Both the position numbers and the translations under genes were made by a program. Of a stretch of DNA of 4,156 bases, positions 1-4,156 are shown one piece after another (within the stretch, counting starts at the first letter, position 1; every line of letters begins with the position of its first letter). The notes under the pieces are model-generated. The model did not search any database and was not told the origin of the DNA. It was given only the letters and a program-made list of their open reading frames with translations. Source of the stretch: a virus (Duplodnaviria; Heunggongvirae; Uroviricota; Caudoviricetes); the IMG/VR virus record IMGVR_UViG_2671180429_000009. One strand, 5' to 3'.

Positions 1-444
1 GGTATGGTCACCGGGATGGCGGAAGATCTGCAGAGTCTGGTCGGCGGAACGGTGCTCCGGCGTAAGGTTTACGCCCGTTTTCTGGATGCGGTGAACTTCG
101 TCAACGGAAACAGTGACGCCGATCCGGAGCAGGAGGTGATCAGCCGCTGGCGCATCGAGCAGTGCAGCGAACTGAGCGCGGTGAGTGCCTCCTTTGTACT
201 GTCCACGCCGACGGAAACGGATGGCGCTGTTTTTCCGGGACGTATCATGCTGGCCAACACCTGCACCTGGACCTATCGCGGTGACGAGTGCGGTTATCAC
301 GGTCCGGCGGTCGCGGATGAATATGACCAGCCAACGTCCGATATCACGAAGGATAAATGCAGCAAATGCCTGAGCGGTTGTAAGTTCCGCAATAACGTCG
401 GCAACTTTGGCGGCTTCCTTTCCATTAACAAACTTTCGCAGTAA
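1..444 (+). CDS. L: Tail tip protein L (lambda gpL-like), C-terminal ~147 codons; 5' end lies upstream of the window
   Basis: Open frame from nt 1 (codon phase 1) to TAA at 442-444. Translation ...GMVTGMAEDLQSLVGG...CSKCLSGCKFRNNVGNFGGFLSINKLSQ matches my recollection of the lambda gpL C-terminus, including the Cys cluster (codons at 262, 289, 358, 367, 379). The ATG at nt 4 in the ORF track is an internal Met, not the true start. Homology is from memory, not a database search. Confidence 0.93.
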   Translation, partial: GMVTGMAEDLQSLVGGTVLRRKVYARFLDAVNFVNGNSDADPEQEVISRWRIEQCSELSAVSASFVLSTPTETDGAVFPGRIMLANTCTWTYRGDECGYHGPAVADEYDQPTSDITKDKCSKCLSGCKFRNNVGNFGGFLSINKLSQ

Positions 445-449
445 ATCCC

Positions 450-1193
450 ATGACACAGACAGAATCAGCGATTCTGGCGCACGCCCGGCGATGTGCGCCA
501 GCGGAGTCGTGCGGCTTCGTGGTAAGCACGCCGGAGGGGGAAAGATATTTCCCCTGCGTGAATATCTCCGGTGAGCCGGAGGCGTATTTCCGTATGTCGC
601 CGGAAGACTGGCTGCAGGCAGAAATGCAGGGTGAGATTGTGGCGCTGGTCCACAGCCATCCCGGTGGTCTGCCCTGGCTGAGTGAGGCCGACCGGCGGCT
701 GCAGGTGCAGAGTGATTTGCCGTGGTGGCTGGTCTGCCGGGGGACGATTCATAAGTTCCGCTGTGTGCCGCATCTCACCGGCCGGCGCTTTGAGCACGGG
801 GTGACGGACTGTTACACGCTGTTCCGGGATGCTTATCATCTGGCGGGGATTGAGATGCCGGATTTTCATCGCGAGGATGACTGGTGGCGTCACGGCCAGA
901 ATCTCTATCTGGATAATCTGGAGGCCACAGGGCTGTATCAGGTGCCGTTGTCATCAGCACAACCGGGCGATGTGCTGCTGTGCTGTTTTGGTTCATCGGT
1001 GCCGAATCATGCCGCCATTTACTGTGGTGACGGCGAGCTGCTGCACCATATTCCTGAACAACTGAGCAAACGAGAGAGGTATACCGACAAATGGCAGCGA
1101 CGCACACACTCCCTCTGGCGTCACCGGGCATGGCGCGCATCTGCCTTTACGGGGATTTACAACGATTTGGCCGCCGCATCGACCTTCGTGTGA
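450..1193 (+). CDS. K: Tail tip assembly protein K (lambda gpK-like), JAB/MPN metallopeptidase + NlpC/P60 cysteine peptidase domains; long form of 247 aa (alternative start ATG at 594 would give 199 aa)
   Basis: ORF of 247 codons starting 5 nt after the L stop. JAMM motif H68-x-H70-x7-S78-x2-D81 (nt 651-692), with an upstream E19-x2-G-x2-V element (nt 504-524). NlpC/P60-like triad candidates: C121 (nt 810-812), H187 (nt 1008-1010), H199/H200. Sequence matches recalled lambda K. No obvious Shine-Dalgarno before ATG 450, so translational coupling to L is possible. Confidence 0.9.
   Translation: MTQTESAILAHARRCAPAESCGFVVSTPEGERYFPCVNISGEPEAYFRMSPEDWLQAEMQGEIVALVHSHPGGLPWLSEADRRLQVQSDLPWWLVCRGTIHKFRCVPHLTGRRFEHGVTDCYTLFRDAYHLAGIEMPDFHREDDWWRHGQNLYLDNLEATGLYQVPLSSAQPGDVLLCCFGSSVPNHAAIYCGDGELLHHIPEQLSKRERYTDKWQRRTHSLWRHRAWRASAFTGIYNDLAAASTFV
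578..596 (+). promoter_or_regulatory. Internal Shine-Dalgarno plus in-frame ATG inside K (candidate alternative start giving the 199-aa form)
   Basis: GGAGG at 578-582, 11 nt upstream of the in-frame ATG at 594-596 (Met49 of the long ORF). As I recall, the classical lambda annotation places the K start here. Confidence 0.4.
1073..1093 (+). promoter_or_regulatory. Ribosome-binding site and start codon of I, embedded in the K coding sequence
   Basis: Purine-rich gagagagg (1073-1080) 10 nt upstream of ATG 1091-1093. Confidence 0.45.
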
Positions 1194-1762
1194 AAACGGG
1201 GGCTGAAGCCATCCGGGCGCTGGCCACACAGCTCCCGGCGTTTCGTCAGAAACTGAGCGACGGCTGGTATCAGGTACGGATTTCCGGGCGGGACGTCAGC
1301 ACGTCCGGATTGACGGCGCAGTTACATGAGGTTCTGCCTGACGGCGCTGTGATTCATATTGTTCCCAGAGTCGCCGGGGCCAAGTCAGGGGGCGTATTCC
1401 AGATTGTTCTGGGGGCTGCCGCCATTGCCGGATCATTCTTTACTGCCGGAGCCACCCTTGCAGCATGGGGGGCAGCCATTGGGGCCGGTGGTATGACCAG
1501 TATCCTGTTTTCTCTCGGTGCCAGTATGGTACTTGGTGGTGTGGCGCAGATGCTGGCACCGAAAGCCAGGACGCCCACGGCAGCAAGTACAGATAACGGC
1601 AAACAGAACACCTATTTCTCCTCACTGGATAACATGGTTGCCCAGGGCAATGTTCTGCCCGTTCTGTACGGTGAAATGCGCGTGGGGTCGCGGGTGGTCT
1701 CTCAGGAGATCAGCACGGCAGACGAAGGGGATGGTGGTCAGGTTGTGGTGATTGGTCGCTGA
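1091..1762 (+). CDS. I: Tail tip assembly protein I (lambda gpI-like), N-terminal ubiquitin-like beta-grasp domain followed by Gly/Ala-rich hydrophobic region
   Basis: 223-codon ORF in a different frame from K, overlapping the K 3' end by 103 bp. GA-rich Shine-Dalgarno (gagagagg, nt 1073-1080) 10 nt upstream of ATG 1091. Translation matches recalled lambda gpI. Stop TGA at 1760-1762. Confidence 0.9.
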   Translation: MAATHTLPLASPGMARICLYGDLQRFGRRIDLRVKTGAEAIRALATQLPAFRQKLSDGWYQVRISGRDVSTSGLTAQLHEVLPDGAVIHIVPRVAGAKSGGVFQIVLGAAAIAGSFFTAGATLAAWGAAIGAGGMTSILFSLGASMVLGGVAQMLAPKARTPTAASTDNGKQNTYFSSLDNMVAQGNVLPVLYGEMRVGSRVVSQEISTADEGDGGQVVVIGR

Positions 1763-1779
1763 TGAAAAACGTTTATGTG

Positions 1780-1809
1780 AAACCGCCTGCGGGCGGTTTT
1801 GTCGTTTCT

Positions 1810-1810
<1 letters not shown>
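1780..1810 (+). terminator. Perfect 8-bp stem / 4-nt loop hairpin followed by a U-rich tract in the I-J spacer (weak intrinsic terminator or mRNA-stabilising stem-loop; function uncertain)
   Basis: AAACCGCC (1780-1787), loop TGCG (1788-1791), GGCGGTTT (1792-1799), then TGTCGTTTCT. It lies 18 nt after the I stop and about 20 nt before the J start. The U tract is interrupted, so a strong terminator is unlikely. Confidence 0.3.

Positions 1811-4156
<2,346 letters not shown>

What the first reader, a model, noticed from the sequence alone, without database searches (positions are those of the whole stretch)
450..1762. Dual-peptidase K (JAB + NlpC/P60) next to I with a ubiquitin-like domain ending in Ser-Gly-Gly
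K carries a JAMM motif and a Cys/His NlpC/P60-like domain (C121, H187, H199/H200). In I, residues 1-98 precede an S-G-G (residues 99-101), followed directly by a long hydrophobic segment. This resembles a Ubl-GG processing substrate placed next to its putative deubiquitinase-like protease. From memory, comparative-genomics work has proposed such a JAB/Ubl relationship in lambdoid tail modules, but I cannot cite it precisely and, as far as I know, it has not been shown biochemically. I is also reported to be absent or substoichiometric in mature lambda virions, which would fit processing or chaperone-like behaviour.
Basis: partly seen in the sequence, partly recalled or inferred. Interest (0 to 1): 0.5.

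Follow-up and report, generated by a model that had tools for sequence, protein, structure and literature searches.

The report
Phage tail protease and ubiquitin-like substrate
These are the lambda-type phage tail-tip genes K and I: K is a two-domain protease, and I begins with a ubiquitin-like domain that is clipped off during tail assembly, an idea published in 2006 and recently reported as confirmed, so the finding is real but not new.

Summary
The window is a lambdoid tail-tip module (L'-K-I-J'), about 96% identical in DNA to phage lambda.

**What holds up**
- K (450-1193, 247 aa) is a JAB/JAMM domain fused to an NlpC/P60 domain. Both catalytic sets are invariant in 14 phages down to 29% identity.
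- I (1091-1762, 223 aa) starts with a confidently predicted beta-grasp domain. Its nearest solved relatives are SAMP1, MoaD and CysO. K's JAB half is nearest to the desampylase PfJAMM1.

**Prior work**
- The K-cuts-I idea is exactly Iyer, Burroughs and Aravind 2006.
- A 2025 conference report says the Davidson lab showed gpK removes gpI's ubiquitin-like domain.
- An F-pyocin preprint shows the homologous N-terminal domain is removed at an assembly checkpoint.

**Corrections**
- The conserved Ubl terminus is P92-x-x-x-G96-A/S97. It aligns with the Gly-Gly of MoaD-type proteins. Ser99-Gly-Gly101 does not.
- Residue 101 is reported as resolved in mature tails, so a cut after Gly101 is unlikely. 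Ala97|Lys98 is the best guess.
- gpI is not absent from virions: its C-terminal part forms a trimeric plug.

**Still open:** the exact cleavage site and the role of the NlpC/P60 domain.

The parts
1..444 (+). 3' part of gene L (tail tip protein L), with its C-terminal Cys cluster (Cys codons at 262, 289, 358, 367 and 379)
   Evidence: Pfam PF05100 Phage_tail_L, E 6.5e-67. Annotated as L in near-identical phages. A [4Fe-4S] cluster in gpL is described in PMC10721106.
450..1193 (+). Gene K, 247 aa: non-structural tail-tip assembly protein with two peptidase domains
   Evidence: ORF. 96% nt identity to lambda K-I. The 247-aa form dominates the databases. AF2 gives pLDDT 93.2 and pTM 0.87.
456..761 (+). 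JAB/JAMM (MPN+) metalloprotease domain of K (residues 3-104). Glu19 is at 504-506. The core H68-S-H70...S78..D81 is at 651-692.
   Evidence: PF14464, E 6e-14. Motif checked. E19, H68, S69, H70, S78 and D81 are invariant in 14 phages at 29-52% identity. Foldseek gives 2kks, PfJAMM1 5ld9/5lda, Rpn11, CSN5 and AMSH. The best NCBIfam match is desampylase, below its cut-off.
780..1121 (+). NlpC/P60 (C40) papain-like cysteine peptidase domain of K (residues 111-224). Cys121 is at 810-812, His187 at 1008-1010 and His200 at 1047-1049.
   Evidence: PF00877, E 5.5e-13. D120, C121, H187 and H200 are invariant; H199 is His in 13/14. Foldseek gives 4hpe, 9ubf, MepS 8xup and 7v6s.
1091..1193 (+). 103-nt dual-coding overlap: the 3' end of K (frame 0) and the 5' end of I (-1 frame)
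   Evidence: ORF coordinates. Both reading frames are conserved in diverged lambdoid phages. The K tail is conserved in Mannheimia phage, where it does not overlap I, and in S137.
1091..1762 (+). Gene I, 223-aa precursor of the tail-tip internal 'plug' protein
   Evidence: 97% identical to lambda gpI of PDB 8iyk, 8iyl, 8k35 and 8xcg. The ATG at 1091 with its GAGAGG Shine-Dalgarno is conserved where Met14 is lost.
1130..1381 (+). Ubiquitin-like beta-grasp domain of I (residues 14-97), MoaD/SAMP type
   Evidence: PF06805. In the AF2 model pLDDT is above 90 for 14-94, with strands 14-19, 29-33, 60-64 and 87-92 and a helix at 37-47. Foldseek top hits are SAMP1, MoaD, CysO, Urm1, ThiS and ubiquitin, TM 0.68-0.75.
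1364..1381 (+). Conserved Ubl C-terminal tail P92-R-V-A-G96-A97. It is equivalent to P-P-V-x-G-G of MoaD-type proteins, and A97|K98 is the most likely scissile bond.
   Evidence: P92 65/66, G96 63/66, A/S97 58/66. Present in 14/14 loci. The profile alignment to 1v8c_A places it on 'FPPVAGG', and 4n6e_B puts G96 on residue 89 of 90. pLDDT falls below 50 at 96-100.
1385..1393 (+). It is a linker residue run and not the conserved Ubl terminus.
   Evidence: G100 31/66 and G101 49/66, with indels. Chance occurrence is 18%. Residue 101 is reported as resolved in mature tails.
1391..1558 (+). Gly/Ala-rich hydrophobic region of I (residues 101-156), comprising two predicted membrane-active helices H1 and H2
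   Evidence: Hydropathy 1.2-1.6. AF2 helices at 100-117 and 138-155, at low confidence. H1 and H2 are described in PMC11101478 and for the F7 pyocin homologue.
1559..1759 (+). C-terminal plug and beta-strand region of I (residues 157-223). It sits as a trimer inside the tip cone and holds the C-terminus of the tape-measure protein.
   Evidence: Cryo-EM descriptions in PMC10721106, PMC12617516 and PMC11101478. Invariant residues F176, N181, G186, P190, G194, G199 and S204.
1822..4156 (+). 5' part of gene J (central tail fibre / tip attachment protein), the docking partner of I
   Evidence: Pfam PF24801, PF13550, PF24421 and PF24489. Annotated as J in near-identical phages.

Best explanation
This is the phage lambda K-I pair.

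gpI is made as a 223-aa precursor with three parts:
- an N-terminal MoaD/SAMP-like ubiquitin-fold domain (residues 14-97);
- two hydrophobic helices (about 101-156);
- a C-terminal plug region (157-223).

gpK is a non-structural 247-aa enzyme. It joins a JAMM zinc metalloprotease (E19, H68, H70, S78, D81) to an NlpC/P60 cysteine peptidase (C121, H187, H200).

During tail-tip assembly gpI docks onto the J/L hub. The JAB domain of gpK then recognises the ubiquitin-fold domain as a deubiquitinase or desampylase recognises its Ubl. It cuts the linear peptide bond at the end of the Ubl's extended tail. The Ubl and gpK leave. The rest of gpI stays as a trimeric plug that holds the tape-measure C-terminus and later probably inserts its helices into the host outer membrane.

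The removable Ubl most plausibly keeps the hydrophobic helices soluble, or sterically blocks later steps, so that cleavage works as an assembly checkpoint.

Basis of each step:
- Shown here (computed): the domain identities, the conservation of the catalytic residues, the predicted beta-grasp fold, and the gene linkage.
- Reported by others: K-dependent cleavage, its timing, the presence of the C-terminal part in virions, and the absence of K from virions.
- Inferred: that the JAB domain, and not the NlpC/P60 domain, is the cutting domain; that the bond is A97|K98 (about 50% confidence; somewhere between 96 and 100 about 85%); and the chaperone/checkpoint rationale.
For: Identity:
- 96% nt identity to lambda across K-I.
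- I is 97% identical to lambda gpI in the PDB.

Domains:
- Pfam JAB, NlpC/P60 and Lambda_tail_I, all above cut-off.
- Motif residues verified.
- Catalytic residues of both K domains make up 10 of only 20 positions invariant across 14 phages at 29-52% identity.
- All 120 best profile hits carry both K domains.

Folds:
- The I model has pLDDT above 90 for residues 14-94 and matches SAMP1, MoaD, CysO, Urm1 and ubiquitin.
- The K model has pLDDT 93. It matches PfJAMM1, including its SAMP2 complex, and MepS-type peptidases.

Linkage:
- The order M-L-K-I-J, with an intact JAMM motif in K and a Ubl in I, is found in 14/14 diverse phages. In five of them small inserted genes separate K from I.
- I homologues occur in 1,746 phage records.

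Site:
- Conservation of P-x3-G-[AS].
- Alignment of this motif to the MoaD-type Gly-Gly.
- Residue 101 is present in the mature tail.

Literature:
- Prediction, PMC1779556.
- Report of demonstrated gpK-dependent cleavage after gpI joins the tip complex, PMC12908700.
- The N-terminus of the F-pyocin gpI homologue is present in stalled tips and absent from mature particles, and the gpK-homologue deletion is tipless.
- The gpI C-terminal part is in virions and gpK is not.
Against: - The only account of the biochemical proof I could find is a two-sentence conference summary. It does not give the cleavage site or say which domain of K cuts. I found no primary paper or preprint.
- The F-pyocin preprint reports that the N-terminal region is removed by unknown E. 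coli proteases when the protein is expressed alone. It leaves the responsible protease open.
- The sequence alignment to MoaD-type proteins is weak by itself (E 0.14 and 0.42).
- I could not inspect coordinates to verify 'resolved from residue 101'. Two other papers model gpI only from residue 134/135.
- The strict conservation of the NlpC/P60 active site is not explained by this model.
Confidence: 0.8

Rival explanations
1. The papain-like NlpC/P60 domain of K, and not the JAB domain, cuts the Ubl from I, as most eukaryotic deubiquitinases are papain-like. The JAB domain then binds the Ubl or has another substrate.
For: The Cys121/His187/His200 triad is as strictly conserved as the JAMM motif. 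Iyer et al. raised this possibility. The conference summary does not name the domain explicitly.
Against: The JAB half is closest to enzymes that cut after SAMP/MoaD-type Ubls: PfJAMM1 with SAMP2 and desampylase. I's Ubl is of exactly that type. The NlpC/P60 half resembles peptidoglycan endopeptidases, not DUBs. The summary calls K's relevant part 'a deubiquitinating domain'.
Confidence: 0.1
2. K's deubiquitinase domain serves mainly as counter-defence. It strips host Bil-type ubiquitin-like proteins that bacteria conjugate to the central tail fibre J. The neighbouring Ubl in I is incidental or acts as a decoy.
For: Hor et al. speculate exactly this for DUB domains in siphophage tail assembly proteins. 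J is the Bil target, and K acts on the J-containing tip complex.
Against: K is essential for tail assembly in the absence of any Bil system, by classical lambda genetics (own knowledge). The F-pyocin gpK-homologue deletion is tipless. JAB and the cis-encoded Ubl co-occur in 14/14 diverse phages. Direct K-on-I cleavage is reported. A secondary anti-Bil role is not excluded.
Confidence: 0.05
3. The Ubl is removed by host or non-specific proteases because the linker is exposed. K is only a chaperone or scaffold for the tip.
For: Recombinant PA0640 expressed alone in E. coli loses its N-terminal region to unknown proteases. The linker 96-100 is predicted to be disordered.
Against: Ten catalytic residues are invariant down to 29% identity, which argues for enzymatic function. 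The N-terminal domain is retained in assembly-stalled tips and lost only on maturation. The conference report attributes the cut to gpK.
Confidence: 0.04
4. One reading: processing occurs after the di-glycine G100-G101, releasing a 101-residue Ubl.
For: SGG is present at 99-101. G101 is fairly conserved, 49/66.
Against: G100 is Gly in only 31/66, with indels at this point. S137 has no GG. Homology places the canonical terminus at G96-A97. Residue 101 is reported as resolved in the mature tail.
Confidence: 0.05

Closest known systems
Phage lambda gpK (tail tip assembly protein K) and gpI (tail tip assembly protein I / tip plug); TAPK-TAPI of Iyer, Burroughs and Aravind 2006
   Same: This is the same system. 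K-I is 96% identical in DNA and gpI 97% identical in protein. Gene order L-K-I-J, the domains and the motifs are all the same.
   Different: A few substitutions only: for example S65, V81, S136 and the 'TAAS' at 162-165 in I. This window is a lambda relative (closest PhiR26_1/PhiR29_1), not lambda itself.
F-pyocin PA0639 (gpK homologue) and PA0640 (tip plug; PDB 25vf chain 9)
   Same: Same architecture. [quoted passage not shown]
   Different: A tailocin, not a phage. The tail reads G-S-K-Q-S-G, so there is no di-Gly. The protease has not been identified experimentally.
Archaeal desampylases and SAMPs (HvJAMM1, PfJAMM1-SAMP2; PDB 5lda)
   Same: A stand-alone minimal JAMM domain acting on a MoaD-like beta-grasp Ubl. 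These are the best structural matches for both partners.
   Different: SAMPs end in a free Gly-Gly and are conjugated through an E1. Here there is no E1, the Ubl is a cis-fused N-terminal domain ending G-A/S, it is cut once, and the JAMM is fused to an NlpC/P60 domain.
Bacterial JAMM processing of fused or adducted sulfur carriers (Mec+/CysO, QbsD/QbsE, DRJAMM on MoaD-MoaE)
   Same: A JAMM enzyme cleaves a linear peptide bond right after the C-terminal tail of a MoaD/ThiS-type domain. CysO is among the top fold matches. DRJAMM cleavage of MoaD-MoaE is cited (abstract of PMC8832034). The other examples are from my own knowledge.
   Different: Those systems expose a Gly-Gly carboxylate for sulfur chemistry. 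Here the released Ubl has no known chemistry, and the product that matters is the C-terminal structural fragment.
Phage T5 baseplate hub protein pb3 plug domain
   Same: A trimeric plug at the same place in the tip lumen, with a hydrophobic segment proposed to enter the outer membrane.
   Different: In T5 the plug is an insertion inside one large hub protein. It has no Ubl and no K-like protease.

Membership tests
JAB/JAMM (MPN+) metalloproteases | Catalytic motif E...H-x-H-x7-S-x2-D | tested here: met
   E19, H68, H70, S78 and D81 are present. All are invariant in 14 diverse phage K proteins.
JAB/JAMM (MPN+) metalloproteases | Profile match above the curated threshold, and an MPN fold | tested here: met
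   PF14464 scores 52.3 bits against a cut-off of 25. The AF2 model matches 2kks, PfJAMM1, Rpn11, CSN5 and AMSH at probability 1.0.
JAB/JAMM (MPN+) metalloproteases | Zinc-dependent (iso)peptidase activity on a Ubl C-terminus | not testable with these tools
   Only a conference summary reports that gpK cleaves gpI.
NlpC/P60 (MEROPS C40) papain-like peptidases | Cys-His-His/polar catalytic triad, with Cys at the N-terminus of a helix | tested here: met
   C121 (the helix at 121-131 starts there), H187 and H200. These are invariant in 14/14.
NlpC/P60 (MEROPS C40) papain-like peptidases | Profile match above the curated threshold, and the fold | tested here: met
   PF00877 scores 49.3 bits against a cut-off of 23. 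Foldseek gives 4hpe, 9ubf, MepS 8xup and 7v6s. TIGR02219 phage_NlpC_fam scores only 23 bits against a cut-off of 81.9, so K is not a member of that narrower family.
NlpC/P60 (MEROPS C40) papain-like peptidases | Known substrate (peptidoglycan stem peptide or other) | not testable with these tools
   No substrate is known for K's domain. K is absent from virions, so a role in cell-wall penetration is unlikely.
ThiS/MoaD/SAMP-type ubiquitin-like beta-grasp domains | Beta-grasp fold (beta-beta-alpha-beta...beta) | tested here: met
   AF2 gives pLDDT above 90 for residues 14-94, with the expected order of elements. Top PDB matches are SAMP1, MoaD, CysO, Urm1, ThiS and ubiquitin, TM 0.68-0.75.
ThiS/MoaD/SAMP-type ubiquitin-like beta-grasp domains | Conserved glycine in the extended tail after the last strand | tested here: met
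   G96 is conserved in 63/66 and in 14/14 loci. It aligns with the penultimate Gly of 4n6e_B and with 'PPVAGG' of 1v8c_A.
ThiS/MoaD/SAMP-type ubiquitin-like beta-grasp domains | Strict C-terminal Gly-Gly, activated by an E1-like adenylating enzyme | tested here: not met
   The last position is Ala/Ser (58/66), not Gly. The chain continues into the structural domain. No E1-like gene lies in the conserved M-L-K-I-J block. It works like a Ubl precursor, not like a conjugatable modifier.
Lambda gpI family (Pfam PF06805 plus the C-terminal plug region) | Ubl, Gly/Ala-rich hydrophobic helices and a conserved C-terminal region, encoded between K and J | tested here: met
   PF06805 scores 94.8 bits. 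I is 97% identical to 8iyk chain I. Invariant C-terminal residues are present. Synteny holds.
Ubl-precursor processing by a dedicated adjacent DUB | K-dependent endoproteolysis of I at the Ubl C-terminus | not testable with these tools
   Predicted in 2006. Reported as shown in 2025. Indirect support from F-pyocin mass spectrometry and from cryo-EM models that lack the Ubl.

The most novel reading that the evidence does not exclude
The strictly conserved NlpC/P60 active site of K has its own, still unidentified substrate in tail assembly. One candidate is the cut in the glycine-rich region that converts tape-measure gpH to gpH*, whose protease is unknown. Another is a second trimming of gpI. 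In addition, the JAB domain may cut at Gly96-Ala97|Lys98, with the conserved Lys at P1' mimicking a Ubl-lysine junction, and it could double as a counter-defence deubiquitinase against Bil-type conjugation to J.
Probability: 0.15. Interest if true: 0.55.

Novelty: already known. Interest (0 to 1): 0.2.

Why it matters
The K-I pair is a clean viral example of a ubiquitin-fold domain and a JAMM deubiquitinase-type enzyme working as a unit without any conjugation machinery. It was used in 2006 as an argument for the prokaryotic origin of the ubiquitin/DUB partnership. It also explains an old puzzle in lambda tail assembly: why I and K are essential while K, and the full-length form of I, are not found in particles.

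The module is very widespread. I homologues occur in 1,746 of 50,697 phage records, and also in F-type pyocins. The mechanism is therefore general to lambda-like tail tips and relevant to engineering phages and tailocins.

None of this is new. What remains open is the exact scissile bond and the job of the second peptidase domain.

Tried and rejected
- **The search for related loci with the diverse I alignment** failed because no conserved stretch could be used as a seed. I used tblastn against annotated phages instead.
- **Single-chain K+I model.** I tried to build one from a natural database fusion (P0300). MAFFT stretched the K-only and I-only sequences across the fusion, so I dropped the idea. 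The tool also returns no coordinates, so contacts could not have been measured.
I redid it with database homologues.
- **Programmed -1 frameshift making a K-I fusion.** Rejected: the database fusions have different junctions, and some carry several frameshifts. Most are singletons. There is no X XXY YYZ heptamer in the overlap.
- **Salmonella phage S137 as a natural Ubl-less I.** Rejected: the annotated start is too late. The frame is open 111 nt further upstream and encodes strands 1-2 of the Ubl.
- **P0167** (2,783 aa, 23 partial matches to I) is a repetitive junk ORF, not a poly-Ubl.
- **The T1 and Gifsy-1 papers** do not mention gpI or gpK.
- **Literature searches.** Five searches found no primary paper or preprint for the Davidson-lab result.
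- **The consensus terminator scan** did not list the I-J hairpin. Folding shows that it is nonetheless stable.
Full report
**What the window is**

The 4,156-nt window is a lambdoid tail-tip module. It is 96-97% identical in DNA to many E. coli lambda-like phages. Across the finding's coordinates it is 96.0% identical to lambda itself.

The ORFs and Pfam matches give four genes:
- the 3' part of L (1-444, PF05100);
- K (450-1193, 247 aa);
- I (1091-1762, 223 aa);
- the 5' part of J (from 1822).

The I protein is 97% identical to lambda 'tail tip assembly protein I' in PDB entries 8iyk, 8iyl, 8k35 and 8xcg. It is 100% identical to that of phage PhiR26_1.

**Checking the observation**

- K has E19 and the JAMM core H68-S-H70-x7-S78-x2-D81. 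It also has C121, H187 and H199/H200.
- I has S99-G100-G101, followed by a Gly/Ala-rich hydrophobic stretch (102-156, hydropathy 1.2-1.6).
- Pfam places Prok-JAB on K residues 3-104, NLPC_P60 on K residues 111-224 and Lambda_tail_I on I residues 14-97. All are above the gathering thresholds.

The features are far more than chance. In 14 K proteins from phages of Mannheimia, Burkholderia, Rhizobium, Acinetobacter, Moraxella, Pseudomonas, Klebsiella, Aeromonas, T1-like and HK97-like groups (29-52% identity), only 20 positions are invariant. Ten of them are the catalytic residues of the two domains: E19, H68, S69, H70, S78, D81, and D120, C121, H187, H200. All 120 best hits to a K profile carry both Pfam domains.

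**Structure tests**

It passes.
- An AlphaFold2 model built on 65 diverse sequences has pLDDT above 90 for residues 14-94. It has strands at 14-19, 29-33, 60-64 and 87-92 and a helix at 37-47.
- Its best matches among solved structures are SAMP1, MoaD, CysO, Urm1, ThiS and ubiquitin (TM 0.68-0.75).
- K models with pLDDT 93 and pTM 0.87.
- The JAB half of K is closest to DSY2949 (2kks) and to P. furiosus JAMM1, including its complex with the Ubl SAMP2. Rpn11, CSN5 and AMSH follow.
- The NlpC/P60 half is closest to peptidoglycan endopeptidases such as MepS and C. difficile autolysins.
- The best NCBIfam match of K is 'desampylase', below its cut-off.

So the enzyme looks like a desampylase and the substrate looks like a SAMP/MoaD.

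**Where the Ubl really ends**

*Conservation.* In 66 diverse full-length homologues (36-60% identity), taken from an exhaustive search that found 3,193 relatives, the conserved residues at the end of the domain are:
- P92 (65/66);
- G96 (63/66);
- A or S at 97 (58/66).

G100 is Gly in only 31/66 and G101 in 49/66, with indels between 98 and 102. P-x3-G-[AS] is found in 56/65 sequences, against a Gly-Gly just downstream in 37/65. It is found in all 14 phage loci. There the following residues read KSGG, KKAG, KKEG, GGNNG or, in Salmonella phage S137, ISAAAAAW. The solved F-pyocin homologue reads G-S-K-Q-S-G.

*Homology.* A profile of the Ubl region aligned to real PDB sequences puts 'ivPvvaGA' on 'LFPPVAGG' of the MoaD-related protein 1v8c. 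It puts G96 on residue 89 of the 90-residue ThiS/MoaD protein 4n6e_B. The E-values are weak (0.14 and 0.42), but the placement agrees with the fold match. In the model the last strand is 87-92, and confidence collapses at 96-100. The residues homologous to the canonical Gly-Gly are therefore G96-A97.

*Chance.* I is 13% glycine with four GG dipeptides. A GG within ten residues of P92 arises in 18% of shuffles.

[quoted passage not shown] If so, Gly101 belongs to the mature protein, and a product 'ending at Gly101' is excluded.

My best estimate of the scissile bond is A97|K98. Anywhere between 96 and 100 remains possible.

**What is already known**

- Iyer, Burroughs and Aravind 2006 (PMC1779556) identified the Ubl in 'TAPI' and the JAB plus NlpC/P60 domains in 'TAPK'. 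They noted the conserved C-terminal glycine and the K-I-J neighbourhood.
- A report of the October 2025 bacteriophage conference says that A. [quoted passage not shown] They used predictions, biochemistry and phage mutants.
[quoted passage not shown] Deleting the gpK homologue PA0639 gives tipless tubes. The protease is left unidentified.
- Cryo-EM and mass spectrometry of lambda show the C-terminal part of gpI as a trimeric plug that holds the C-terminus of the tape-measure protein. gpK is absent from virions.

The statement that I is absent from virions is therefore outdated. The claim 'not shown biochemically' appears to be superseded, although I found no primary paper in five searches.

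**Mechanism**

gpI is a precursor, and its Ubl is a removable N-terminal module. After gpI docks in the J/L hub, K's JAMM domain binds the Ubl as a DUB binds ubiquitin and hydrolyses the linear bond at the end of the extended tail. K and the Ubl leave. Helices H1 and H2 and the plug region remain inside the cone.

The Ubl probably keeps the two membrane-active helices soluble, or blocks premature joining to the tube, so the cut acts as a checkpoint. The timing and the cleavage itself are reported by others. The assignment to the JAB domain, the exact bond and the chaperone rationale are inferences.

Rivals:
- The NlpC/P60 domain makes the cut.
- K's main role is counter-defence against Bil-type Ubl conjugation to J, as speculated by Hor et al..
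- Host proteases make the cut.
- The cut is after G101.

Each is less well supported, as detailed in the rival list. The unexplained item is the perfectly conserved NlpC/P60 active site, whose substrate is unknown.

**Gene boundaries**

The classic lambda annotation starts K at Met49 (199 aa). That removes E19 and the first strands of the JAB domain. The 247-aa form starting at 450 is the coherent one, for three reasons. The Pfam match begins at residue 3. Residues E19, C21, N38 and F47 are invariant. The 247-aa form dominates the databases.

I is annotated with three different starts: 223, 210 and 190 aa.
- In Stx-phage relatives Met14 is replaced by Leu, while the ATG at 1091 and its GGAGAGG Shine-Dalgarno are kept. 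This supports 223 aa.
- The 190-aa start would delete strands 1-2 of the Ubl.

K and I therefore overlap by 103 nt in different frames. This overlap is real, because K's C-terminal tail is conserved in a Mannheimia phage where it does not overlap I. Most distant relatives either overlap by only 1-17 nt or have small inserted genes between K and I.

**Verdict**

However, it was published as a prediction in 2006 and has reportedly been confirmed. My added value is twofold: the correction of the likely cleavage site (G96-A97|K98, not after G101) and of the virion statement. The system is already known, so interest is low. The open questions are the exact bond and the function of the NlpC/P60 domain.

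Noticed in passing
window 450-596: The classic lambda annotation starts K at Met49 (nt 594, 199 aa). That cuts off Glu19 and the first strands of the JAB domain. The ORF from 450 (247 aa, 6 nt after the L stop) is the conserved one. 199-aa database entries are scored as 'NlpC/P60 only' for this reason, and this may also explain some 'JAB-less K' reports.
   Followed up: yes
window 1091, 1130, 1190: Gene I is annotated with three different starts in public records: 223 aa, 210 aa and 190 aa. In Stx-phage relatives Met14 is Leu (CTG), while the ATG at 1091 and its Shine-Dalgarno are kept, which favours 223 aa. The 190-aa GTG start would delete two strands of the Ubl. Residues 1-13 are predicted to be disordered, and diverse homologues do not share them.
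   Followed up: yes
window 1091-1193: K and I overlap by 103 nt in different frames, and both frames are conserved. K's predicted C-terminal helix (residues 230-244) is encoded by the same DNA as strands 1-2 of I's Ubl. In the 13 distant relatives checked, K and I either overlap by only 1-17 nt or have small inserted genes between them.
   Followed up: partly
window 1779-1812: A stable hairpin followed by a U-run lies between I and J: AAACCGCC-UGCG-GGCGGUUU, then UGUCGUUUC (-20.7 kcal/mol, z -2.5). It resembles an intrinsic terminator inside the late operon. The consensus scan did not list it. HK97-like phage mEp234 has an annotated terminator at the same place.
   Followed up: partly
window 262-381: The C-terminal part of L carries five Cys codons (262, 289, 358, 367, 379). 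These correspond to the published [4Fe-4S] cluster region of gpL.
   Followed up: no
proteins P0010, P0013, P0284, P0300, P0341, P0351, P0385 (database homologues): Many database entries are K-I fusion proteins. Their junctions differ, and some contain several frameshifts, so they look like sequencing errors or pseudogenes in the overlap. The overlap has no slippery heptamer. PHROG 35166 appears to be a genuine JAB-I fusion family, and the PHROG for J (phrog_31) contains an I-like segment.
   Followed up: partly
L016 (Salmonella phage S137) 2135-2692: The annotated I (148 aa) starts inside the Ubl. The frame is open 111 nt further upstream, encodes the missing strands and overlaps the end of K. 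I saw no obvious ATG in that extension, so its real start is unclear. After the G-A of its Ubl tail comes ISAAAAAW, with no Lys or Gly-Gly.
   Followed up: partly
protein P0167 (representative search): A 2,783-aa repetitive ORF scored 23 partial matches to I residues 10-64. It is a translated tandem repeat with chance resemblance (FGDFENLSRRMDLKVFADAIRA), not a poly-Ubl protein.
   Followed up: yes
window 2422-3867, minus strand: A 481-aa ORF lies antisense to J. It appears only in the mechanical ORF list. It was not examined, and is presumably an artefact of the GC-rich codon usage of J.
   Followed up: no
I residue K98 (window 1382-1384): The residue after the conserved G-[A/S] is Lys in most homologues (36/66, otherwise mostly Gly). 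If the cut is at A97|K98, the P1' residue would be a lysine, reminiscent of a Ubl-lysine junction. This is speculative.
   Followed up: no
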